IMG/VR virus record: IMGVR_UViG_2778261424_000010
Span: 1 to 41,171 of that record
DNA from: a virus
Lineage: Duplodnaviria > Heunggongvirae > Uroviricota > Caudoviricetes
DNA: 41,171 nt
Reading direction: 5' to 3' (one strand)
Shown here: one piece after another, positions 4,491 through 35,064 of the stretch
How positions within the stretch are numbered: position 1 is the stretch's first letter
Layout: every line of letters starts with the position of its first letter
Notes under the pieces: generated by a model
Database searches by the model: none
Told to the model about the DNA's origin: nothing
What the model saw: the letters and a program-made list of their open reading frames with translations, nothing else
Made by a program: the position numbers and the translations under genes

Positions 4491-4688
4491 TTACTGCTGC
4501 GCGATGGATTTCGCCGGGAACTCGCCGTTGCGGATGATGCTTTCTACCGGCCAGCACTCAGCTGACACTTTCTGCTCTGTAGCTGCCAGGCTGCATTCCT
4601 GCTGGCTGTCGTAAACGCCGAGAATGACATCCTGATAATCACCGTTGGTCATTGCCACGGTCAGGACGAGTGCGAATAAAGTTTCCAT
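4491..4688 (-). CDS. Small hydrophobic-N-terminus protein (DUF1482-like)
   Basis: 65 aa from the internal ATG at 4688 (METLFALVLTVAMTNGDYQDV...). Its start shares one nucleotide with the stop of the upstream mini-gene. Confidence 0.5.
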   Translation of the reverse strand: METLFALVLTVAMTNGDYQDVILGVYDSQQECSLAATEQKVSAECWPVESIIRNGEFPAKSIAQQ

Positions 4689-4816
4689 CAGTGAAGAGTC
4701 CTCCCGATGGCGACGGCGTAAAGGCGTTTTGCTTCTTCCCACGCCGGAGCATTGCGATGGAGCACCGCGAACGACGCGAGCCGTTGGGCCTCTCTGATCT
4801 GCTGCTGGTTTACCAT
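4688..4816 (-). CDS. 42-aa hypothetical early-left protein (not in the ORF track)
   Basis: ATG at 4816 preceded by AGAGGAAATC. Translation: MVNQQQIREAQRLASFAVLHRNAPAWEEAKRLYAVAIGRTLH. The stop is coupled to the next start (TGATG). Confidence 0.35.
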   Translation of the reverse strand: MVNQQQIREAQRLASFAVLHRNAPAWEEAKRLYAVAIGRTLH

Positions 4817-4956: not shown

Positions 4957-4978
4957 TAAAAAACCCGCCGGAGCGGGT
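4957..4978 (-). terminator. Rho-independent terminator directly after the 222-aa gene
   Basis: On the minus strand the hairpin ACCCGC-TCCG-GCGGGT (4978-4963) is followed by TTTTTTAT. It begins immediately after the TGA at 4978-4980. Confidence 0.7.
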
Positions 4979-5646
4979 CATTCATTCTTTGGTATGCCGC
5001 AAAGGGCGTTTAGCGTTTCAACGGGAATGGCAAGTGCGGTGCTGGTCGCTTCACGGCGTTCCACCTCAGGCAAATATGGCACTGCCTCAGGCCACATCTC
5101 AGCCAGTTTTTTAACAGTTGAGACTTTGGTTAGAGCACCTTTAACCTGCAATTGGAAGGCATCAACTTCATCGTAAAGAACGTTGATGGTTACCGTCGAT
5201 TCAGTGAGTCGGTCGTGTAATTTTCCAACTTTCTTCAGCGTGCTGTAACTTTCAGGAACGAAACCCGAATCAATTACAGGCGCGAAGGAAGCTCCGAAGA
5301 ACAGGTCGCTTTCAAGATCGTGCTTACCAATATGTTTTCCACGGTGGCGATAGCGATGATCCAAACCGTTCCTGGCTAATTCGTGATACTCACCATTAAT
5401 AATGACCTTTAAAATTGCAGTTTTAGCGCCGACCTTCATCTTGATGAAGGAGTTATCTTTGAAATCTTCCCGAGCCTTAGTTATTTGCTCATCGCTAGTG
5501 TTTTCCTGCTTGAGCAATGCCTGTCGAATTTCTTCAACAATTTTCGCCCTCTCATTAACCGCAGCTTTCGCTTTCTCAAACAATGGGGATGCGAGAAGCA
5601 GGTTATGGCATAGCTGATTTTTAATTTCGTTGTTAAGACGAATCAT
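4978..5646 (-). CDS. Orphan 222-aa protein, first cistron of the PL operon; function unknown
   Basis: Clean ORF with SD AGAGGG upstream of the ATG at 5646. GC content is lower than in the neighbours. Helical N-terminal third, mixed remainder, no TM segment. I cannot assign a family from sequence alone. Confidence 0.8.
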   Translation of the reverse strand: MIRLNNEIKNQLCHNLLLASPLFEKAKAAVNERAKIVEEIRQALLKQENTSDEQITKAREDFKDNSFIKMKVGAKTAILKVIINGEYHELARNGLDHRYRHRGKHIGKHDLESDLFFGASFAPVIDSGFVPESYSTLKKVGKLHDRLTESTVTINVLYDEVDAFQLQVKGALTKVSTVKKLAEMWPEAVPYLPEVERREATSTALAIPVETLNALCGIPKNE

Positions 5647-5692
5647 TGACTTACCCTCTGTCGTTACCCGCTGATGCGGGAGAAATGCTTTG

Positions 5693-5762
5693 TGGTGGAG
5701 TGCTACGGATTCGAACCGAAGTTTTCATGGGTGATCAGTCCATGCAGGCCCAGCCACACCCC
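5693..5762 (-). ncRNA. tRNA-like element (degenerate cloverleaf with encoded CCA) inside the PL leader
   Basis: Minus strand: GGGGUGU GGCUGGGCCUG CAUGG ACUGAUCAC CCAUG AAAAC UUCGG UUCGAAU CCGUA GCACUCC A CCA. It has a 7-bp acceptor stem (two G-U pairs) and a 5-bp anticodon-like stem with a 9-nt loop. The variable region is 5 nt. The T-arm has the canonical UUCGAAU loop and one U-U mismatch. The D-arm is reduced to an 11-nt stretch. Confidence 0.45.
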
Positions 5763-5917
5763 ATTACAAAACATTCCAGTTACGCACCATTGCCGCTCTC
5801 CCTGAGCCCGCCGGGCGTCCGACGCATGGTTTACTGTCGCGCCGTTCGACTGACCGAATCTCCACTTCGCCGCTGGCTAACTTCGCTCAGCTGTCGATGT
5901 TTCGTTTCGATGGGGTA

Positions 5918-5946
5918 AATTTAGCGTGATGCTAAATTATGCGCAA
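5918..5946 (-). promoter_or_regulatory. Candidate PL promoter
   Basis: Minus strand: TTGCGC (5946-5941), a 17-nt spacer, then TAAATT (5923-5918). Operator copies overlap it. It faces the leader and the 222-aa gene. Confidence 0.45.
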
Positions 5947-6033: not shown

Positions 6034-6058
6034 AAAAAAGCCCGCGCGATGGCGGGCT
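6034..6058 (-). terminator. Rho-independent terminator downstream of cI
   Basis: On the minus strand the hairpin AGCCCGC-CATCGC-GCGGGCT is followed by TTTTTT. It lies 20 nt after the cI stop. Confidence 0.75.
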
Positions 6059-6077
6059 TGAGGGGTTTTGCGTGAGG

Positions 6078-6755
6078 TTATGGGATGTTTAGTATTTTGG
6101 CATCAACCACAACGCCGATGATTTTGCAGTTTCCATTAATTTCTAGCATTGGATATGCGGGGTTAAGGGGCTTTAGGAAGCGTCTGCCGGCATCGATTAC
6201 AAGCTTCTTAAAGGTCGCTTCGTTATCGCCTTCTAGCTTCGCGACAACCAGCTTTCCGTTGCGCGGCTCGACTTCAGGATCAACAAGTATCGCTGCTCCC
6301 TCGGGTATGCTCAGTCCAGCCGGGGAGGTCATAGAATCCCCTTTAACGTCCAGCCAGAATGAATCTTCTGAGCAGTCAACAGTCGTGTCATACCAGCGAT
6401 CTATCGCTCTTCGGTGATAAGGTTCTACAGCTTCCATCCATTGCCCCGCGCTTACCCAGCTGATTACAGGATAACTTCCTTTTGTCTCGTTCAGTCCTCG
6501 AAATGCAACGTTCGAAGGTTCTTCACTGGCGTGTAAAACATCCATCCAGCCAAAAGGCAGATCAAGCGCAGTTTCAATTTTGCGAGCCATCTTATCGCCG
6601 ATATTGCGATGAGGGTTTGGTCCCAGTAGCTGGCTAAGCGCAGCCGGACTTGTCTCGATGAGCTCGGCAAACTGCGCTTTGGTCATTCCAGACTCGTGCT
6701 GACGCTTCTCGTACAGCGCTTCCAGGTTGGCTTTTCTGATTTCTTTATTTTCCAT
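6078..6755 (-). CDS. cI: cI-type prophage repressor (HTH plus S24/LexA-like autopeptidase)
   Basis: 225 aa from the ATG at 6755. The C-terminal half is colinear with lambda cI. It has the candidate Ala-Gly cleavage site in VSAGQW, the Ser nucleophile in KGDSM, and the Lys in ATFKKL. Confidence 0.9.
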   Translation of the reverse strand: MENKEIRKANLEALYEKRQHESGMTKAQFAELIETSPAALSQLLGPNPHRNIGDKMARKIETALDLPFGWMDVLHASEEPSNVAFRGLNETKGSYPVISWVSAGQWMEAVEPYHRRAIDRWYDTTVDCSEDSFWLDVKGDSMTSPAGLSIPEGAAILVDPEVEPRNGKLVVAKLEGDNEATFKKLVIDAGRRFLKPLNPAYPMLEINGNCKIIGVVVDAKILNIP

Positions 6756-6773
6756 ACCTGCATTGTTACTGCT

Positions 6774-6839
6774 TTTAGCAAAATGATAAATGTGCAAATT
6801 GCTAAATGATGCTTGCGTAGTATTTAGCATAACGCTAAA
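6774..6839. promoter_or_regulatory. OR operator cluster
   Basis: TTTAGCAAAATGATAAA (6774-6790), a weaker ATGTGCAAATTGCTAAA (6790-6806) and TTTAGCATAACGCTAAA (6823-6839), all between divergent cI and cro. Confidence 0.7.
6799..6826 (+). promoter_or_regulatory. Candidate PR promoter
   Basis: TTGCTA (6799-6804), a 16-nt spacer, then TATTTA (6821-6826). The -10 hexamer overlaps the operator at 6823-6839. The cro SD GGAGA lies 7 nt before the ATG. Confidence 0.55.
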
Positions 6840-6871
6840 CTCCAAATCAAACGACTCACCCGGAGACACCA

Positions 6872-7105
6872 ATGAGCACTGAACTACACCGCTGGCGCAA
6901 GGCCGCCACTACCGACGAATGGGCGCAGCTCGCAAAGTTGGCTAACACGACGCCAGGTTACCTGGACCAGATCGCCTACGGAAATCGCCGGGCATCTCCA
7001 GAAATGGCATCTGCTATCGAGAAAGGCACGAAGAATTTTCACCGCCAGGCTCCGGTCCTAAAAGAAAGCCTGGTATTCGCATCGCCGCGTGATACTGCGG
7101 CCTAA
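6872..7105 (+). CDS. cro: Cro/YdaS-type small HTH regulator
   Basis: 77 aa, divergent from cI across the operator cluster. The HTH-like segment is WAQLAKLANTTPGYLDQIAYG. Confidence 0.75.
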   Translation: MSTELHRWRKAATTDEWAQLAKLANTTPGYLDQIAYGNRRASPEMASAIEKGTKNFHRQAPVLKESLVFASPRDTAA

Positions 7106-7122: not shown

Positions 7123-7665
7123 ATGCATTCACTTGCGTATCAACACAATACCGGAATACACCCGGGAGCGATGATAAACCGCGCTCAACCTAAGGCGGCG
7201 CCAGACCACGAAAAGATCCGCGATGCGGTCCGGGCATGGTCTTCGGCGCTGGACAATCAGGACGTCGTTTCGGCACTGATCATCAACGAATACCGGGAGC
7301 AGGGCGGTACCGCCATCAGCTTCCCGGAAGACATCAGCCGGGCGCGCCAGAAGCTGTTTCGCTTCCTCGATAACCGTTTCGACTCTGAGCAGTACCGCGA
7401 GAACGTGCGCCAGCTGACACCCGCAATCATGGCGGTCCTGCCGGTTGAGTATCGCACTCGCCTGATCGGTGCCGATTGCAAAATGTCTCGCCTGGCTGAG
7501 GCCGAGAAAGAACTCGCAGAGGCTAAACAGGCAGTGCTGCTGGACGCTCCAGAGCATCAGAAGCTGAAAGAGGTAAGCGAGGGTATAGCGTCGCTGTTCC
7601 GCCTCATGCCTGAGCAGGTAGGGCCGCTGATGACGATGGTTACGTCGATGCTGGGGGCTATGTGA
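7123..7665 (+). CDS. ydaT: YdaT-family protein in the cII position
   Basis: 180 aa. The segment EYREQGG...QLTPAIMAVLPVEYRTRL parallels Rac YdaT (EEYLRQGG...LIPAILAILPRELRHRL) as I remember it. It is the second gene of the PR operon. Confidence 0.65.
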   Translation: MHSLAYQHNTGIHPGAMINRAQPKAAPDHEKIRDAVRAWSSALDNQDVVSALIINEYREQGGTAISFPEDISRARQKLFRFLDNRFDSEQYRENVRQLTPAIMAVLPVEYRTRLIGADCKMSRLAEAEKELAEAKQAVLLDAPEHQKLKEVSEGIASLFRLMPEQVGPLMTMVTSMLGAM

Positions 7666-14379: not shown

Positions 14380-14516
14380 CATTTGAATCCTGTTTTTCCG
14401 ATCACCTCCGCGTTCGCTGGCAGCGGCTTCGCTTATACCACTTTCCCGGCTCTGTGCTAACGGACTACCGGATACTGAAGAATTACGTGAAAACTTATGC
14501 TGGAGAAGCGCTATGA
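14376..14516 (+). CDS. ylcG: YlcG-like small protein (not in the ORF track)
   Basis: 46 aa: [46 protein letters not shown]. It has ATGA coupling to both rusA and Q, the same position as ylcG in DLP12. Confidence 0.45.
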
Positions 14517-15295
14517 ACCTTGAAAACACAGTGAAATACCACTTCGCTAAATCCACACTGATTAGCGATTCTCCGCGCGCTACCGCCTCCGATTCACTGA
14601 CCGGTACCGACATAATGGCTGCCATGGGCATGACGCAGGAACGCGCCGCAATGGGTTACAGCGCCTTCCTCGGCAAGATGGGCATAAGCAATAACGACCG
14701 GGATCGGGCGATCGGTCTGCTGGCTGAGTACGCGATGACAAAATGCGACAAGGTTGCCGCACTGCGTAAGCTCGGTGCCGCGGTTAAACCTCAGGTGATG
14801 CACCAGTTGGCCACCTTCGCTTTTGAGGACTATTCCCGCAGCGCTGCCAGCGTGAAGCAGTGCGATTGTTGTGACGGTCAGGGCTTCATTGAGGCTGACG
14901 TGTTTACCAATAAATTCCGTAAGCCAGAAGGGAGAATGACCGTGTCCGGGATGGTGAAGGTCAAAGAATCCATCAAAGTGCTATGCAAAAAGTGTAATGG
15001 CTCTGGTGTGGTTAGTGCTTCTTGCAGTGATTGCCATGGGCGCGGCAAGGCAGTGAACCAGGCTCTTACTGAGAAACAGGGCGTTCCTGTTCTGGCTGAC
15101 TGTAAGCGCTGCGGAGGGCGTGGGTATGAACGACTTCCGTCGACTGAAGCCTATGCTGCTGTATGCCAGATTACTGACGCCATTAGCCTGGACACCTGGA
15201 AAAAGTCTGTTAAGCCATTCTACGACCTGCTGATCACGAAATTTGATATCGAAGAGTCCTGGGCCGAAAAACAGCTTAAGCAGATAACGCGGTAA
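14513..15295 (+). CDS. Q: Late antiterminator Q (phage-82/DLP12 QuuD family) with four CxxCxGxG zinc-finger motifs
   Basis: 260 aa. The N-terminus [33 protein letters not shown] and the C-terminus TWKKSVKPFYDLL parallel QuuD. The central motifs are CDCCDGQG, CKKCNGSG, CSDCHGRG and CKRCGGRG. Confidence 0.85.
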   Translation: MNLENTVKYHFAKSTLISDSPRATASDSLTGTDIMAAMGMTQERAAMGYSAFLGKMGISNNDRDRAIGLLAEYAMTKCDKVAALRKLGAAVKPQVMHQLATFAFEDYSRSAASVKQCDCCDGQGFIEADVFTNKFRKPEGRMTVSGMVKVKESIKVLCKKCNGSGVVSASCSDCHGRGKAVNQALTEKQGVPVLADCKRCGGRGYERLPSTEAYAAVCQITDAISLDTWKKSVKPFYDLLITKFDIEESWAEKQLKQITR

Positions 15296-15394
15296 CGCCT
15301 ATAGCGATAGCCTATGATTTTGTCTTGGGCTATTTACTTTTCCCGAATCTGTGTTAATTTTGTCCCAACGATGGGTTAATGCCTTCGTTTCAAG

Positions 15395-15422
15395 CCCTGC
15401 GGATAACACCGTGGGGTTTTTT
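15395..15422 (+). terminator. tR'-like terminator downstream of Q
   Basis: CCCTGCGG-ATAACA-CCGTGGGG is followed by TTTTTT. It lies about 100 nt after the Q stop, analogous to the lambda 6S RNA terminator. Confidence 0.65.
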
Positions 15423-16291: not shown

Positions 16292-16317
16292 GCCCCGGCA
16301 CCCGCTGGGGCTTTTTT
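16292..16317 (+). terminator. Rho-independent terminator upstream of the lysis cassette
   Basis: GCCCCGG-CACCCG-CTGGGGC is followed by TTTTTTATTT. Confidence 0.65.
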
Positions 16318-30831: not shown

Positions 30832-33088
30832 CGCAGATACGATTAAAGATTTCCTTGTTTCGCTGGGATTCGATATCGATCAGGCTGGCGCTAATAAGTT
30901 TGAAGCCGTGCTGAAAGGCGTTACAGCTAACGTTCTGAAGGTCGGCGCGGTGGTGGAAGGCGCAGCGCTGAGCATTGTCGGATTTACCACTCAGATCGCG
31001 AACGGTCTGGATAAAATTTACTGGGCATCCCAGCGGACGGGGGCCAGTGTCCAGGGCATCAAAGCGCTGGGATACGCCGCATCGCAAACCGGTGCCAGCG
31101 CCGAGTCGGCTATGTCCTCCCTCGAAGGGCTGGCCGGTTTCATGCGTAGCAATCCGGGCGCGGAAGGCTTCCTGAACCGCCTGGGCGTCCAGACTCGCGA
31201 TGCCAGCGGAAAGATGCGTGATACTGCGGCCATCTTTACTGGCGTTGGGCAAAAGCTCAACAACATGCCGTATTACCGCGCGAAACAATACGCGCAGATG
31301 CTTGGCATCGATGAAAACACGCTGATGGCGATGCGGCGCGGCATGAATGGCTTTACCGCCGATTACCAGTCGATGCTGCAAAAGACAGGGTTCAACGCTG
31401 ATAAAGCGGCTGTTCAGTCCAACAAATTCATGACGTCCATGCGCGGGCTTACGTCGCTGTTCGGCATCATGCGGGACAAGATCGGCTCAAACCTCGCTGG
31501 TGGCCTGGCTGGTTCGCTGGACAGCCTGCGGCGGCGCATCCTCGACAATTTCCCGAAGATTGAAGAGACGCTGACCAGAGTTATTAAAGGCGTGATCTGG
31601 CTTGCGAACGCATTCACGAGAATGGCGTGGCGGCTGATACAGGGCGCTGGCTCTGTCATCGACTGGTGGAAGCGTCTTGACGATGGCAGTAAAAATCTGC
31701 TGAAAATATTCGGTGCTCTACTTGTCGCATGGCGTCTGCTTAATTCTGCGTTCCTGAAATCCCCGATTGGAATTATCACCACGCTGATTCTGGCGATCGG
31801 ATTACTCTATGACGATTATCAGACGTGGAAAGAAGGCGGTAAAAGCCTGATTGACTGGTCCAAGTGGGAGCCTGCAATAGAAAAGGCGAAAAAGGCAATT
31901 CTCTGGCTGCGCGATAAGCTTCTGGGGCTGAAAGATTCTGTTGGTGGATGGCAGAACTCGCTGGAAATTTTGGCTACTTTCATCGCTGGGGTATGGGTAA
32001 CAAAAGTATTGGGAGCATTCGCAAAAATATCCGGTCTTCCGATACCTCCATGGCTTAAATTATGGGGAGCGTATGCTGGTTACCTGGTTTCAGATCGTGA
32101 AAACATAAAAGCCAGTGCTAAATCATCTTTGGACTATACCAAAAGGAACATTGGTGATGCTCTTGCTACGGTTGGCATCAAAACCGACCTTGGGCGAAAA
32201 GATGTTAGCGAGGTAAGAGAATGGCCCGCATGGATGGATTGGCTGCATGGTGGCCCAGGTAAGATTATTCGTCAGGCGCAAAGCAATGGCGTCGTTTATG
32301 GCGATAATGTTCAGCCTGACATTCCCGGGGCGGAACAGCATGTTCGTAGTAATGAAATTGCCCCGCATGAAAGAGATGAAATAAAAAACCGTCAGCAGGC
32401 TGCTAATGGTTATCTTGAAAAAATCTCAGACGGGATTGCCAAAATCGGTAATTTATTTTTCTCCCCGGTTGGAGCTGCTGAAATCTCTCCAAATATATCG
32501 GGTGACCCCTCCCAGTTTGCGCAATCAGTCAAACGTCCACAGGCCACAGCCCAGGGCAAAGTATTGCTCGACTGGATGGGGCCAATGTTCAATAAACTTG
32601 AGTCGCTTTATCAACTTCCAGCTGGTCTATTGAAAAGTGTGGCGATAACCGAGTCAGGTGGTAACCAGTTCGCCATGTCCGGCGCAGGCGCGAAAGGTCT
32701 GTTTCAGTTTATGGATGGTACGGCGCGCGACATGGGCCTTCGCGGAAACGATGTATTCGACCCGCAAAAGTCAGCTCAGGCCGCAGCTAAGTACCTCAGC
32801 CAGCTGTTGCGGCAGAACGGCGGAGACCTTAGCAAAGCACTGGCATCATATAACTGGGGGATCGGGAATGTTAAGCGCTATGGCATGGGGTTAATGCCGC
32901 AGGAAACGCGTAACTACATTCCGAAAGTAATGAGCAACATGCCCACCAGCGCCCCGGTGATTCAGCAGGAAACGAATATTAACATCCACGGCGTTTCCGA
33001 TCCGCGCGAGGCTGCCCGTTTGACTGTTGATCGTCAAAAGGGCGTGAATTCACAGTTAACCCAGCAACTCCCCGCAGGACCGAGATAA
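30821..33088 (+). CDS. Tape measure protein with a C-terminal lytic transglycosylase (SLT) domain
   Basis: 755 aa with central TM-like and helical segments. The SLT signature ITESGGNQ...GLFQFM...AAAKYL...YNWG lies at about nt 32627-32890. Confidence 0.9.
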   Translation: MSGNADTIKDFLVSLGFDIDQAGANKFEAVLKGVTANVLKVGAVVEGAALSIVGFTTQIANGLDKIYWASQRTGASVQGIKALGYAASQTGASAESAMSSLEGLAGFMRSNPGAEGFLNRLGVQTRDASGKMRDTAAIFTGVGQKLNNMPYYRAKQYAQMLGIDENTLMAMRRGMNGFTADYQSMLQKTGFNADKAAVQSNKFMTSMRGLTSLFGIMRDKIGSNLAGGLAGSLDSLRRRILDNFPKIEETLTRVIKGVIWLANAFTRMAWRLIQGAGSVIDWWKRLDDGSKNLLKIFGALLVAWRLLNSAFLKSPIGIITTLILAIGLLYDDYQTWKEGGKSLIDWSKWEPAIEKAKKAILWLRDKLLGLKDSVGGWQNSLEILATFIAGVWVTKVLGAFAKISGLPIPPWLKLWGAYAGYLVSDRENIKASAKSSLDYTKRNIGDALATVGIKTDLGRKDVSEVREWPAWMDWLHGGPGKIIRQAQSNGVVYGDNVQPDIPGAEQHVRSNEIAPHERDEIKNRQQAANGYLEKISDGIAKIGNLFFSPVGAAEISPNISGDPSQFAQSVKRPQATAQGKVLLDWMGPMFNKLESLYQLPAGLLKSVAITESGGNQFAMSGAGAKGLFQFMDGTARDMGLRGNDVFDPQKSAQAAAKYLSQLLRQNGGDLSKALASYNWGIGNVKRYGMGLMPQETRNYIPKVMSNMPTSAPVIQQETNINIHGVSDPREAARLTVDRQKGVNSQLTQQLPAGPR

Positions 33089-33690
33089 TGGATATTTTAT
33101 CAGCGATTTTTCGCCAGCAATCCCGGCGAATTGGCCTGCTGATCCCCAGCGTGGTCGTCTCCGAAAAGCATTCTGATGTGCTCGAAATTACTGAGCACCC
33201 GGTGGAGAAGCCAACAACGAATAGCGCTTCGGGCTTCATCGCCGATCATGCGTATAAGCGCCCCAGCGAAGTCACAATGGAATGCGGCTTCGCTGGTGGC
33301 GGTTCGTTGCTGGACTTCATTGATACATCTTCAATCGGCCTCAGCGCCGGACTTAGCCCGAAAGAGACCTATCAGCAACTACTGGATCTCCAGTCCTCTC
33401 GGGTGCCGTTCGATGTAGTGACCGGAAAGCGGGTTTACAGCAATATGCTGGTGCGAGCCATCGAGGTGACAACGGATAAAACCAGCGAGAACGTGCTGAA
33501 CTGCACGCTTACCCTGCGTGAAGTGATCATGTCGCAGACGCAGAGCGTTAGCGTTGCAGATAAATCAGATATGCAGGATGGCGTCAGCACATCGGCGGTG
33601 CAGAATTCCGGGATGAAATCCACTACACCGCCAAACGAATCCTTGCTGAGCCAGCTGGGCGGAAGCGTTACATCAGCATTCGGGGGATGA
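33088..33690 (+). CDS. Baseplate/tail tip protein
   Basis: 200 aa with TAATG coupling to the tape measure gene. Called by position. Confidence 0.45.
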   Translation: MDILSAIFRQQSRRIGLLIPSVVVSEKHSDVLEITEHPVEKPTTNSASGFIADHAYKRPSEVTMECGFAGGGSLLDFIDTSSIGLSAGLSPKETYQQLLDLQSSRVPFDVVTGKRVYSNMLVRAIEVTTDKTSENVLNCTLTLREVIMSQTQSVSVADKSDMQDGVSTSAVQNSGMKSTTPPNESLLSQLGGSVTSAFGG

Positions 33691-33691
33691 T

Positions 33692-33997
33692 ATGCAGTTT
33701 AACGAAATACCGCTTTCTCCTGACAATCAGCAGTTCCGCGTTTTGCTGGGCAATACCACGTATACACTCAGGATCATCTGGCGTGATGCGGCTGGCTGGA
33801 TTATGGACGTGATGGATAGCGGCGGTGCTGCGCTTCTTTCTGGCGTACCTCTCCTGACCGGCGTGAACCTATTACGACAATATCCACAGCTTGGCATTGA
33901 TGGCGCGCTGGTGGTGGCGACCGATAAGGGCGCACCAGACGAGCCCACCAAAACCAACCTCGGCACATACAGCCACCTCATTTTCGTACAGGAGTAG
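33692..33997 (+). CDS. Small baseplate/tail protein
   Basis: 101 aa. Called by position. Confidence 0.45.
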   Translation: MQFNEIPLSPDNQQFRVLLGNTTYTLRIIWRDAAGWIMDVMDSGGAALLSGVPLLTGVNLLRQYPQLGIDGALVVATDKGAPDEPTKTNLGTYSHLIFVQE

Positions 33998-33999
33998 AA

Positions 34000-35064
34000 A
34001 TGTCTCTTAACTGGATGCGCCATTTTGAGCTGCAACTGTTGGACCAGAACGGGCAGGGCGTTTCCCTGTCTGACTTTAAGGTCACGTTCCAGATCGAGTG
34101 GGCAGACACACGCTGGCCACGCGTGGCGAACGTGAAAATTTACAACCTTTCGACCGATACCACGAACAAGATACTGGGGCAGGAGTTTGCAAAAATTCGC
34201 ATCATTGCCGGGTATGACGGTATTGCGCCGGATGTTGATGCGAGCCAGGTTGGTGTCGCCCGGGAGATTTCACCAGACCAGGTAGGGCAGGTGAACGGTC
34301 AGAACTACGGCCTGATATTTGACGGTGATATTCGCTTCACCGTCACCGGGAAGGACAACATCACCGATTCCTGGGTGCTGATTCAGGCCATCAGTAACCA
34401 CGAAGCGTTCCTCTACGCGACTACCATCACCACGCTTGCCGCTGGTTATACCGTTGCGGACCTGCACCGGGCGACTATGCAGGATTTCAACGCGTTCGGC
34501 GTGACGCAGGGCATTACCGGTGACTTTCCTGATACCGTGTTTCCTCGTGGCCGTGCGATTTATTCATCCACCCGTAACGTGATGGATAATATTGCTGCGC
34601 AGTGCAAAGCGACATGGCAGCTGGTGGATGGTCAGGTCCAGATGGTGCCGGAGGATAAATATATTCACGAAGCCATTGTGTTGAATGCCGATACTGGCCT
34701 GATCGGTATGCCGCAACAAACGATGGGCGGCGGCGTAAACGTGCGGTGCCTGATAAACCCAAACATCCGTATTAATGGTCTTATCCAGCTCGATCAGGCT
34801 TCGGTGTACCGCGCCGCGCTCGGCAATAGCGAAATCGCACAGTCGCCCGGGCGTATCACCGAAACAGAAGAGAACGGCAACCGTGTGCTGACCGGCACGA
34901 CGTCACAGGCTGCCAGCATTGCGACGGATGGCGTTTATATCGTCAAAGCTATCGACTATACTGGCGACACCAGAGGTCAGGCGTGGTACATGGATTTGAT
35001 GTGTTTTGCGCGTGGCGCTCGTGATCTTTATAGCCCGAAAGCAATGCAAGGGACGACGAATTAG
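34000..35064 (+). CDS. Baseplate hub-like protein (Mu gp44 / P2 gpD-like position)
   Basis: 354 aa, upstream of the spike gene. Confidence 0.5.
   Translation: MSLNWMRHFELQLLDQNGQGVSLSDFKVTFQIEWADTRWPRVANVKIYNLSTDTTNKILGQEFAKIRIIAGYDGIAPDVDASQVGVAREISPDQVGQVNGQNYGLIFDGDIRFTVTGKDNITDSWVLIQAISNHEAFLYATTITTLAAGYTVADLHRATMQDFNAFGVTQGITGDFPDTVFPRGRAIYSSTRNVMDNIAAQCKATWQLVDGQVQMVPEDKYIHEAIVLNADTGLIGMPQQTMGGGVNVRCLINPNIRINGLIQLDQASVYRAALGNSEIAQSPGRITETEENGNRVLTGTTSQAASIATDGVYIVKAIDYTGDTRGQAWYMDLMCFARGARDLYSPKAMQGTTN

What the first reader, a model, noticed from the sequence alone, without database searches (positions are those of the whole stretch)
5647..5918. No N-like gene and no obvious nut site: a 260-nt untranslated leader may act as an RNA-based (put-like) antiterminator
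From the candidate PL (-10 at 5923-5918) to the first start codon (5646) there are about 260 nt with no minus-strand ORF of 60 aa or more. I could not find a boxA (CGCTCTT-like) motif. The right operon has only 17 nt between cro and the next gene, leaving no room for a nutR. Yet the recombination genes lie behind the terminator at 4957-4978, so some read-through mechanism is needed. The leader is GC-rich and full of local hairpins. One is GCUGA-GCGAAG-UUAGC, and a second GCGAAGU motif lies 16 nt later. Others are GCCC-GGC-GGGC, a longer-range ACCAU...AUGGU pairing, and CCCGC-AUCA-GCGGG just before the SD. HK022 shows that a cis-acting RNA alone can make polymerase terminator-resistant.
Basis: inference. 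Interest (0 to 1): 0.55.

Follow-up and report, generated by a model that had tools for sequence, protein, structure and literature searches.

The report
Put antiterminator RNA in prophage leader

Summary
Window 5782-5851 (minus strand) is a put-family antiterminator RNA. It is 95% identical to the annotated putL-like RNA of phage HK639 and 82% identical to HK022 putL. A covariance model scores it 99 bits, with no second site in the window. Across 29-35 homologues the cryo-EM-derived fold is 94-97% paired, with nine pairs changed on both sides.

No N-like protein or boxA is present. The terminator behind the first gene matches HK639's annotated one. Late genes have their own Q.

Only about 70 of the 260 nt is put.

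The rest of the leader is modular. It has a 5' hairpin, put, and then a conserved 12-bp stem holding a swappable structured cassette. At least 17 unrelated cassette types occupy that stem in other phages. The window's type is a tRNA-like fold with alanine identity features (G3.U70, A73, CCA). Another type mimics 16S rRNA helix 11.

This module also occurs in phi80 and without put, so it is not part of the antiterminator. Its function is unknown. An RNase III processing site is my leading guess.

The parts
5918..5946 (-). Candidate PL promoter: -35 TTGCGC (5946-5941), 17-nt spacer, -10 TAAATT (5923-5918). It is overlapped by the operator-like inverted repeat TTTAGC-ATCAC-GCTAAA (5936-5920). The transcript start is inferred near 5911.
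   Evidence: Read directly from the sequence. In about 90 related loci, unrelated operator/promoter sequences give way to the conserved leader 5-8 nt after a -10-like hexamer. HK639 annotates 'putative pL' at the equivalent place. The strict consensus scan did not call it, so the promoter is inferred.
5853..5911 (-). 5' leader hairpin closed by AUCGAA (5911-5906) / UUCGGU (5858-5853), with a ~40-nt insert.
   Evidence: Predicted fold. Other put loci have a short version, AUCGAAAC-AACACAGC-GUUUCGGU, with a compensated variant AUCGAGAC/GUCUCGGU. The first 47 nt are identical in phi80, which uses N. Variants of the insert hairpin (UUAAC, GCUGC, GCUGU, ACUGA) break pairs.
5782..5851 (-). put antiterminator RNA core (HK022 putL numbering A3-C72). 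It comprises the 5' duplex 3-7/15-19, stem I 10-14/30-34, unpaired/A9-paired G35, and stem II 36-72 with its internal loop and the U68 bulge.
   Evidence: 95% identity to HK639 putL-like RNA and 82% to HK022 putL. Covariance model hit at 5780-5853, 99.2 bits, E = 1.5e-21. Covariation support. Residues shown essential in PMC9378689 (A9, U28, G35, G45, A64, U68) are all present.
5682..5777 (-). Stem-cassette module. The outer stem is GGAAUGUUUUGU (5777-5766) / ACAAAGCAUUUC (5693-5682) and encloses a variable structured cassette. It is not part of put.
   Evidence: Conserved flanks enclose at least 17 unrelated cassette types in IMG/VR loci. Every type has a 6-11 bp terminal helix, against about 3 bp in shuffles. 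The module is present in phi80 between nutL and N, and in 41 of 62 module loci no put was detectable.
5693..5762 (-). The window's cassette: a 70-nt tRNA-like element. Its acceptor stem is G1-C72, G2-C71, G3.U70, G4-C69, U5-A68, G6-C67, U7.G66, followed by A73 and CCA. It has a T-arm with GGUUCGAAUCC, an anticodon-like arm (loop with GAU), and a D-arm reduced to GGC-UGG-GCC.
   Evidence: ARAGORN calls it 'tRNA-Ile(GAT), anticodon at position 27'. The same call is made in HK639 and about 20 IMG/VR loci. The majority variant has a cloverleaf as its minimum-energy fold. No Rfam tRNA or tmRNA hit appears even at E<=10. The window and E. coli PEC148 carry a U for G change that makes a U.U mismatch in the T-stem.
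5667..5680 (-). Conserved hairpin CCCGC-AUCA-GCGGG just upstream of the ribosome-binding site. It has no U-tract, so it is not a terminator.
   Evidence: Read from the sequence. It is identical in HK639, CobraSix, PEC148 and phi80, where it precedes N.
5644..5658 (-). Shine-Dalgarno GAGGG (5658-5654) and the ATG (5646-5644) of the first PL gene.
   Evidence: Read from the sequence and the ORF list.
4978..5646 (-). First gene of the left operon, 222 aa, Nmad5 family (PF18757). It occupies a hypervariable accessory-gene slot.
   Evidence: Pfam E = 1e-30 and phrog_1965. In 79 related loci the gene in this position falls into 34 unrelated clusters.
4962..4979 (-). Intrinsic terminator tL (GACCCGCUCCGGCGGGUU followed by UUUUUAU) that put-modified polymerase must read through to reach the DUF1482, gamL, recT, exonuclease and xis genes.
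   Evidence: Terminator scan. It is identical, together with the following ~60 nt, to the first terminator annotated in HK639.

Best explanation
Transcription from PL (start near 5911) first produces a 5' hairpin and then the ~70-nt put RNA (5851->5782). By homology with HK022 putL and HK639 putL, this RNA folds co-transcriptionally into a V-shaped two-stem structure. It binds the zinc-binding domain of the beta' subunit of the RNA polymerase that made it and stays bound. The polymerase then resists pausing and both intrinsic and Rho-dependent termination.

The modified polymerase reads through the terminator at 4979-4962 and any later ones into the gam/recT/exonuclease/xis genes. No phage protein is needed. 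The phage has one put site, on the left only, as annotated for HK639. The early right operon has no strong intrinsic terminator, and the late genes are controlled by a separate Q protein.

Shown here: homology, conserved fold with covariation, conserved essential residues, operon anatomy, and absence of N and nut. Inferred from the family: binding to beta' and actual read-through.

The remaining ~190 nt of the leader is not the antiterminator. It consists of a 5' hairpin and a separate stem-cassette module, which is tRNA-like in this phage, placed between put and the first ribosome-binding site. My best guess for the module (about 40%) is an RNase III processing hairpin like the one in the lambda N leader.
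For: Homology:
- blastn gives 95% identity to the HK639 feature annotated 'putL-like antiterminator RNA' and 82% to HK022/HK75/O276 putL.
- A covariance model built only from putL-type sequences scores the window site at 99.2 bits (E = 1.5e-21). It recovers HK022-type putR as a positive control at 41.6 bits. Nothing else in the window scores above 11 bits.

Fold:
- On a MAFFT alignment of 29 distinct homologues, the cryo-EM fold is 93.9% paired, against 23-49% when partners are slid. Nine pairs change on both sides, and the covariation score is 0.354 against <=0.081.
- On 31 distinct sequences including putR types and species-representative genomes, the figures are 96.7% paired and 0.472 against <=0.092.
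- Between HK022 and the window, pairs 5-17, 36-72, 37-71, 40-67 and 48-58 are all swapped compensatorily.

Functional residues and literature:
- A9, U28, G35, G45, A64 and the U68 bulge are needed for activity or for the beta' zinc-binding-domain contact (PMC9378689). All are present in the window.

Anatomy:
- The terminator after the first gene is identical to HK639's annotated terminator.
- No N-like family, Arg-rich N-terminal protein or boxA was found.
- phi80, which has a related immunity region, carries nutL and N exactly where the window carries put.
- A Q-like protein and tR'-like terminators account for late control.
Against: - No functional test was possible, so read-through and beta' dependence are inferred from relatives.
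- The paper that tested HK639 putL (King et al. 2011, J Bacteriol 193:5784, cited in PMC9378689) could not be read here. HK639's experimental status therefore rests on the GenBank annotation and my memory.
- Unlike HK022 putL, which starts at about +3 of the transcript, this put starts near +61. The sigma-dependent pause proposed to help HK022 putL fold (a -10-like AACCAU at +23 to +28) would sit at about +81 here, if it operates at all.
- The thermodynamic stability of the put segment alone is no better than shuffled sequence (z = +0.26). That is expected for a fold with many non-canonical pairs, but it gives no independent support.
- The promoter is inferred and was not called by the consensus scan.
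Confidence: 0.88

Rival explanations
1. A small N-like protein encoded elsewhere in the prophage, acting at an unrecognised nut site, provides antitermination. The put homology would then be a relic.
For: ORF 4491-4742 (minus strand) begins MGRSKTPLRRRHRE, an Arg-rich N-terminus. N proteins are too divergent for homology searches to exclude them completely.
Against: - That Arg-rich stretch is a GTG-start extension upstream of the DUF1482 family's normal start at M19 (Pfam and PHROG matches cover residues 19-78). PGAP annotates the shorter protein in PEC148.
- The ORF lies behind the terminator it would have to overcome.
- No PHROG or Pfam N family appears among the left-operon genes.
- There is no boxA in the leader.
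- In phi80, nutL and N occupy the same joints where the window has put, so the two are alternatives rather than partners.
- Put is under clear purifying and compensatory selection.
Confidence: 0.03
2. The whole 260-nt leader, including the tRNA-like element and the flanking hairpins, is one large antiterminator RNA that goes beyond put.
For: All the parts are co-transcribed and structured. The arrangement of 5' hairpin, put and module is 95-98% conserved in CobraSix-like and HK639-like phages.
Against: - The stem-cassette module occurs without any detectable put in 41 of 62 loci, and in the N-dependent phage phi80.
- In HK639 a 115-codon gene separates put from the module.
- The cassette is replaced by at least 17 unrelated sequences behind the same put.
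- The first 47 nt of the leader are shared with phi80.
- HK022 putL works with neither extension (PMC9378689).
Confidence: 0.05
3. No antitermination is needed. The terminator at 4962-4979 is leaky, and the leader is simply a long 5' UTR or encodes a small or antisense protein.
For: A 90-codon ORF on the plus strand spans 5646-5918, and CobraSix annotates a hypothetical protein (gp51) on that strand across its put. Terminator strength was not measured.
Against: - The plus-strand ORF has no PHROG match.
- Variation in the region follows RNA base-pairing, with compensatory double changes rather than a reading frame.
- Whole cassettes are swapped inside that ORF.
- The terminator is a 7-bp GC-rich stem followed by six U residues, and HK639's authors annotated it as a terminator.
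Confidence: 0.04

Closest known systems
HK639 putL-like antiterminator RNA (GenBank NC_016158 34187-34312; King et al. 2011, J Bacteriol 193:5784)
   Same: - The leader is 95% identical, with the same 5' hairpin, the same put stem I and the same position about 60 nt into the PL transcript.
- There is a single put, on the left only.
- The first terminator is identical.
- The same tRNA-like cassette and the same SD hairpin lie downstream.
   Different: - The lower part of stem II differs with compensation: ACGCCC...GGUGCGU in the window against ACCAUA...UUAUGGC in HK639.
- HK639 has an extra gene (gp45) between put and the stem-cassette module.
- The first gene after the module and the immunity region both differ.
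HK022 putL and putR (cryo-EM structure PDB 7XUE, PMC9378689)
   Same: The core is 82% identical. All the helices and all the residues shown to matter (A9, U28, G35, G45, A64, U68) are shared. Both phages lack N, and the role in early-operon terminator read-through is the same.
   Different: - HK022 putL starts at about +3 of the transcript, while the window's put starts near +61 behind a 5' hairpin.
- HK022 has a second site, putR, between cro and cII. The window has none.
- HK022 follows putL with nun. The window follows it with the stem-cassette module and an Nmad5 gene.
phi80 PL leader with nutL and N
   Same: The cI/cII region is related (about 89% identity). The first 47 nt of the PL transcript are identical, a stem-cassette module occupies the same place, and the CCCGCAUCAGCGGG hairpin and SD are identical.
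   Different: phi80 has boxA and boxB where the window has put, and N is the first gene. It therefore uses protein-dependent rather than RNA-only antitermination.
RNase III-processed hairpin of the lambda N leader (my own knowledge; not verified in the held library)
   Same: A long irregular stem of about 20 bp lies between the antitermination site and the ribosome-binding site of the first PL gene. That is the position and form of the window's stem-cassette module.
   Different: There is no sequence similarity, and cleavage is untested. The apex here is a set of interchangeable, complex cassettes, some mimicking tRNA or 16S rRNA. This has not been described for lambda.
tRNA-Ala acceptor / tmRNA tRNA-like domain, and tRNA-like processing elements such as mascRNA
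   Same: The window's cassette has G3.U70, A73, G1-C72, G2-C71, G4-C69, an encoded CCA and a T-arm with the UUCGAAU loop. This is the set that AlaRS recognises in tRNA-Ala, tmRNA and minihelices (established knowledge; the sequence was read).
   Different: - There is no proper D-arm, and the anticodon-like loop has 9 nt.
- Neither the Rfam tRNA model nor the tmRNA model matches.
- ARAGORN finds no tmRNA and no tag reading frame.
- In the primary transcript the CCA is paired within the outer stem.
- Charging is untested.

Membership tests
put antiterminator RNA (HK022 putL/putR, HK639 putL) | Sequence homology to experimentally defined put RNAs | tested here: met
   95% identity to HK639 putL-like RNA and 82% to HK022 putL. 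The covariance model scores 99.2 bits, E = 1.5e-21.
put antiterminator RNA (HK022 putL/putR, HK639 putL) | Two-stem V-shaped fold: stem I 10-14/30-34, and stem II 36-72 with an internal loop and the U68 bulge | tested here: met
   94-97% of cells are paired, against 23-49% for slid controls. Nine pairs change on both sides. Every one of these pairs can form in the window sequence (alignment).
put antiterminator RNA (HK022 putL/putR, HK639 putL) | 5' duplex A3-G7 / C15-U19 seen in the cryo-EM structure | tested here: met
   Four of the five pairs form in the window. Pair 5-17 is U-A where HK022 has A-U. Pair 3-19 is A.A in the window subtype (PMC9378689).
put antiterminator RNA (HK022 putL/putR, HK639 putL) | Residues required for activity or for beta' zinc-binding-domain contact (A9, U28, G35, G45, A64, U68 bulge) | tested here: met
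   All are present in the window and were compared with the mutagenesis in PMC9378689. Positions 21-35 and 42-47 were fixed by my search pattern. Their invariance across the sample is therefore uninformative, but their presence in the window is real.
put antiterminator RNA (HK022 putL/putR, HK639 putL) | Located in cis in an early transcript, downstream of the promoter and upstream of terminators, in a phage without N | tested here: met
   The order is PL, then put, then the first gene, then tL. No N or boxA was found.
put antiterminator RNA (HK022 putL/putR, HK639 putL) | Promotes terminator read-through, and does so dependent on the beta' zinc-binding domain | not testable with these tools
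   This needs reporter fusions, in vitro transcription, and rpoC mutant hosts.
HK022-type arrangement specifically | Two sites (putL and putR), with putL starting at the 5' end of the PL transcript | tested here: not met
   The window has only one model hit, and put begins near +61. This matches the HK639 arrangement instead. Seven other loci do have both sites.
lambda-type N/nut antitermination | An N protein with an Arg-rich motif, plus boxA/boxB in the leader | tested here: not met
   There are no N family hits. The only Arg-rich N-terminus is an artefactual ORF extension behind the terminator. No boxA lies in the leader.
canonical tRNA (for the element at 5693-5762) | Cloverleaf with D-arm, 7-nt anticodon loop, T-arm, acceptor stem and CCA, matching the tRNA covariance model | tested here: not met
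   ARAGORN calls it, but with the anticodon at position 27. The acceptor, T-arm and CCA are present, the D-arm is reduced to a 3-bp hairpin, and the anticodon-like loop has 9 nt. There is no Rfam tRNA hit at E<=10. It is tRNA-like, not a tRNA.
tmRNA (for the element at 5693-5762) | tRNA-like domain plus a tag reading frame and pseudoknots | tested here: not met
   ARAGORN reports no tmRNA, and there is no Rfam tmRNA hit. The element is only 70 nt.
RNase III leader hairpin (lambda N-leader type) for the module 5682-5777 | About 20 bp of near-continuous duplex between the antitermination site and the first RBS, cleaved by RNase III | tested here: inconclusive
   The duplex is present: a 12-bp outer stem plus a 6-11 bp inner stem in all 17 cassette types, and the position matches. 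Cleavage cannot be tested here.

The most novel reading that the evidence does not exclude
Between put and the first ribosome-binding site, the leader carries a member of an undescribed family of interchangeable structured-RNA cassettes held in a conserved stem. There are at least 17 unrelated types. The window's type is a tRNA-like RNA with the alanine identity set (G3.U70, A73, CCA). Other types include a 16S rRNA helix-11 mimic and further T-arm-bearing folds.

The novel reading is that these cassettes are cut out of the early transcript, by RNase III and/or RNase P, to give abundant small RNAs that mimic host RNAs. Such RNAs could act as decoys or sponges for a synthetase, SmpB or EF-Tu, a ribosomal protein, or an RNA-targeting defence nuclease. 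On this reading the cassettes are more than a neutral apex on a processing hairpin.
Probability: 0.25. Interest if true: 0.7.

Novelty: new member of a known kind. Interest (0 to 1): 0.33.

Why it matters
For the finding as posed, it matters little. It adds one more unannotated copy of a mechanism described for HK022 in the 1990s, extended to HK639 in 2011 and solved by cryo-EM in 2022.

Three by-products are useful:
- This put subtype turns out to be common. There are more than 120 IMG/VR contigs, and prophages in 16 species representatives across Enterobacterales and Gilliamella. It is combined with at least 15 immunity regions, and it is routinely unannotated or overlaid by a spurious ORF, as in CobraSix gp51.
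- Natural variation independently supports the cryo-EM fold, including the unexpected 3-7/15-19 duplex.
- put and nutL+N are exchanged between fixed joints in otherwise related leaders.

The stem-cassette module is the part that could repay experiments. If the tRNA-like and rRNA-like cassettes are processed and active, they would be a new class of phage-encoded RNA mimics made at the very start of infection.

Tried and rejected
- **Rfam:** it has no put family. Gathering-threshold and permissive scans of the window and leader gave only noise (AgvB at 18 bits, mir-320, Trp_leader).
- **King et al. 2011:** I could not retrieve it by DOI or PMC id. The supplement of PMC9378689 does not name its ten put sequences.
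- **tmRNA idea:** I first suspected a small tmRNA because GGAGAUUCGGUCAGUCGAACGG resembles a tmRNA 5' end. I rejected this because that stretch is the 5' side of put, and neither ARAGORN nor Rfam finds a tmRNA.
- **Exact-match scan:** the window's tRNA-like 3' 25-mer has no exact match in IMG/VR, because the window carries a rare U variant. ARAGORN then found the G variant in about 20 loci.
- **Covariation in the tRNA-like element:** not possible, because the copies are nearly invariant.
- **Cognate RNA-protein pair:** rejected. The cassette does not track the downstream gene. The same cassette precedes at least 10 different genes, and there are 34 first-gene clusters in 79 loci.
rejected.
- **Thermodynamic z-scores:** uninformative for every piece.
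- **Literature searches:** searches for a tRNA-like element in lambdoid leaders and for the lambda N-leader RNase III site found nothing relevant in the held library.
Full report
**What is at the coordinates**

The window is a lambdoid prophage.
- A cI-like repressor (S24 peptidase plus HTH) lies at 6078-6872 on the minus strand.
- A cro-like gene lies at 6872-7105 and a cII/YdaT-like gene at 7123-7665, both on the plus strand.
- The leftward early operon runs down from about 5911 through an Nmad5 gene (4978-5646), DUF1482, a 323-aa protein, GamL, RecT, a YqaJ exonuclease and Xis. The integrase is at 1-1194.

It has -35 TTGCGC at 5946-5941, a 17-nt spacer and -10 TAAATT at 5923-5918, and it is overlapped by an operator-like inverted repeat. 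Independent support comes from about 90 related loci. There, unrelated operator/promoter regions give way to a conserved leader 5-8 nt after a -10-like hexamer, which places the start near 5911.

The transcribed strand has no open stretch longer than 57 codons. No boxA-like site lies in the leader or in the cro-cII gap, and the window-wide count equals chance. A strong intrinsic terminator follows the first gene at 4979->4962. The descriptive part of the observation therefore holds. 'GC-rich' is true only of the put core (0.671), not of the whole leader (0.559 against 0.530 for the window).

**The leader contains put**

blastn of the leader against 50,697 phage records gave three informative results:
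- 95% identity to the HK639 feature annotated 'putL-like antiterminator RNA'.
- 98% identity to Enterobacter phage CobraSix, where the region is unannotated and overlaid by a hypothetical ORF on the wrong strand.
- 82% identity between a core at about 5784-5851 and HK022/HK75/O276 putL.

Aligned to HK022 putL, the window element runs from A3 (5851) to C72 (5782) with the same numbering.

I collected more than 120 IMG/VR loci and 16 species-representative genomes carrying the putL-type core. The genomes span Enterobacter, Escherichia, Kluyvera, Siccibacter, Erwinia, Pantoea, Winslowiella, Izhakiella, Symbiopectobacterium and Gilliamella. About 50-60 distinct sequences resulted.

- On a MAFFT alignment of 29 distinct sequences, 93.9% of cells are paired, against 23-49% when the 3' partners are slid by 1-3 columns. 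Nine pairs change on both sides, and the covariation score is 0.354 against at most 0.081.
- On a model-based alignment of 31 distinct sequences that adds putR types and the genome copies, the figures are 96.7% paired and 0.472 against at most 0.092.
- Between HK022 and the window, pairs 5-17, 36-72, 37-71, 40-67 and 48-58 are all exchanged compensatorily. The 5-17 swap supports the 3-7/15-19 duplex that the cryo-EM study found unexpectedly.
- The residues that study found essential (A9, U28, G35, G45, A64, the U68 bulge) are all present.

Positions 21-35 and 42-47 were fixed by my search pattern. Their invariance across the sample is therefore not evidence. Positions 6-16 and 60-65 were free and are also invariant.

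**One site only**

A covariance model built solely from putL-type sequences scores the window site at 99.2 bits (E = 1.5e-21). It detects HK022-type putR as a positive control at 41.6 bits. Nothing else in the 41-kb window scores above 11 bits.

The window therefore has the HK639 arrangement (left site only) rather than the HK022 arrangement. Seven other loci do have both sites.

The right operon shows no strong plus-strand intrinsic terminator until after a Q-like gene (14513-15295). Two strong terminators (15392-15419 and 16292-16311) precede the lysis genes. Late read-through is therefore Q's job, and nothing on the right calls for a put.

**No N**

Pfam and PHROG scans of all left-operon genes and of the leader ORFs gave no N family.

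An Arg-rich-motif screen of every ORF flagged only 4491-4742 (MGRSKTPLRRRHRE...) in a plausible place. Those 18 residues are a GTG-start extension upstream of the DUF1482 family's normal start. PGAP annotates the shorter protein in a near-identical E. coli prophage, and the ORF lies behind the terminator.

The terminator at 4979->4962 and the about 60 nt after it are identical to HK639's first annotated terminator. HK639's second terminator keeps its hairpin here but loses its U-tract.

**Mechanism**

By homology, the nascent put RNA folds, binds the beta' zinc-binding domain at the RNA exit channel and stays bound. [quoted passage not shown]

The inferred steps are binding and read-through in this phage. 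The shown steps are homology, fold, essential residues, anatomy and the absence of the alternative system.

**The rest of the leader**

Only about 70 of the 260 nt is put.

The 5' part (5911-5853) is a hairpin closed by AUCGAA/UUCGGU. Other put loci have a short version of it with a compensated variant (AUCGAAAC/GUUUCGGU against AUCGAGAC/GUCUCGGU). HK022 has none.

- Its natural variants break pairs without compensation.
- The first 47 nt of the leader, hairpin included, are identical in phi80, which uses N.

phi80 has a related immunity region and gives a natural comparison. Between the same two joints it carries nutL boxA/boxB where the window carries put, and N is its first gene.

**An unexpected module**

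ARAGORN calls a 70-nt 'tRNA-Ile(GAT)' with its anticodon at the abnormal position 27, at 5693-5762 on the transcribed strand. Its features are:
- A 7-bp acceptor stem reading G1-C72, G2-C71, G3.U70, G4-C69, U5-A68, G6-C67, U7.G66, followed by A73 and CCA.
- A T-arm with GGUUCGAAUCC.
- A D-arm reduced to a 3-bp hairpin.

G3.U70 with A73 is the alanine identity set of tRNA-Ala and tmRNA (established knowledge). The Rfam tRNA and tmRNA models do not match, so the element is tRNA-like and not a tRNA.

The same element, nearly invariant, is in HK639, in one of 5,426 complete E. coli genomes (strain PEC148), and in about 20 IMG/VR loci. In HK639 it lies 450 nt beyond put, after an inserted gene. The window and PEC148 carry a U for G change that weakens the T-stem.

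The element is the insert of a larger module. A conserved outer stem (GGAAUGUUUUGU at 5777-5766 pairing with ACAAAGCAUUUC at 5693-5682) holds completely different structured cassettes of 63-157 nt in other phages. There are at least 17 unrelated types. Each has its own 6-11 bp terminal helix, against about 3 bp in shuffles, and a multi-branched interior.
- Four types have a UUCGAnU T-loop hairpin next to the 3' strand.
- One (L186) is called tRNA-Ser-like by ARAGORN.
- One (L089/L071) contains a 47-nt match to bacterial 16S rRNA helix 11 (Rfam, 37 bits, E = 3e-7).
- The other types match no Rfam family.

The module is not part of put. In 41 of 62 module-bearing loci no put was detectable, and phi80 has the module between nutL and N.

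The module is not a cognate partner of the next gene either.
- The window's cassette precedes at least 10 different genes.
- The first-gene slot holds 34 unrelated protein clusters in 79 loci.
- One immunity region is found combined with at least four cassettes.

The module's position, between the antitermination site and the first ribosome-binding site, and its form, about 20 bp of duplex, match the RNase III hairpin of the lambda N leader (my own knowledge, not verified here). That is my leading explanation. Whether the cassettes are neutral apices, mosaic joints or active host-RNA mimics is open.

**Verdict**

The mechanism is known, and a near-identical copy is already annotated in HK639. 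The window's element is therefore a new member of a known kind, of low to moderate interest. The stem-cassette module, with its alanine-type tRNA-like insert, is the unexplained part worth following.

Noticed in passing
window 5682-5777 (-), insert 5693-5762: A conserved 12-bp stem encloses a swappable structured cassette. Here the cassette is a 70-nt tRNA-like fold with G3.U70, A73, CCA and a GGUUCGAAUCC T-arm. At least 17 unrelated cassette types occupy the same stem in other phages. The module also occurs without put and in phi80.
   Followed up: partly
L089:2026-2072 and L071:4192-4238 (the cassette in the same slot): One cassette type contains a 47-nt copy of bacterial 16S rRNA helix 11 (Rfam SSU model positions 237-283, 37 bits, E = 3e-7). 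Its closing pairs have been remodelled.
   Followed up: partly
L186:10026-10096; L105 and L068 cassettes: Other cassette types are also tRNA-like. L186 is called tRNA-Ser(TGA)-like by ARAGORN and has U8-A9, a D-arm with GG, and ACCA. L105 and L068 end in T-arm hairpins (GCUGGUUCGACUCCAGC and GGGGUUCGAUUCCUC).
   Followed up: partly
window 4978-5646 (-): The first PL gene is an Nmad5-family protein (PF18757, 'nucleotide modification associated domain 5'). In related phages this position is a hypervariable accessory slot, with 34 unrelated protein clusters in 79 loci. E. coli PEC148 has a DUF551 gene there.
   Followed up: partly
window 5646-5918 (+); L003:2544-2900 (+): A 90-codon plus-strand ORF overlies the put leader. 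CobraSix annotates the equivalent as hypothetical protein gp51. It has no family match, and the region varies by RNA pairing and cassette swapping, so the ORF is almost certainly spurious.
   Followed up: yes
window 4491-4742 (-): The ORF begins with the Arg-rich stretch MGRSKTPLRRRHRE from a GTG start, upstream of the DUF1482 family's usual start at M19. It looks N-like at first sight, but it is an ORF-extension artefact and lies behind the terminator.
   Followed up: yes
L207 (phi80 31800-34400): phi80's PL transcript shares its first 47 nt and its last ~50 nt (hairpin plus SD) with the window. It carries nutL where the window carries put. This is a clean module swap between fixed joints in phages with related immunity regions.
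   Followed up: yes
window 6038-6059 (-): A strong intrinsic terminator (AAGCCCGCCAUCGCGCGGGCUU followed by UUUUU) lies just after the cI stop codon. It insulates PL from repressor-gene transcription.
   Followed up: no
window 14513-15295 (+), 15392-15419 (+), 16292-16311 (+): A Q-like late antiterminator gene is followed by two strong terminators ahead of the holin and endolysin genes. A 189-aa gene of unknown function (phrog_11870) lies between the two terminators.
   Followed up: partly
L111:2026-2105 and L027:343-422: Two aberrant put copies. L111 has an insertion of about 20 nt in the apical part of stem II. L027 has the 5' half of stem I replaced (ACCGCGCAUUAACGCGAC...) and may be inactive.
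   Followed up: no
L124 (E. coli PEC148 chromosome 2739091-2751228): A near-identical prophage leader in a pig isolate. Its recT is interrupted by two IS3-family elements, so that prophage is probably recombination-defective.
   Followed up: no
L008:8444-8588: A put-bearing IMG/VR contig ends in host SraC/RyeA-SdsR/RyeB sRNA genes. This suggests that the prophage is integrated next to that locus.
   Followed up: no
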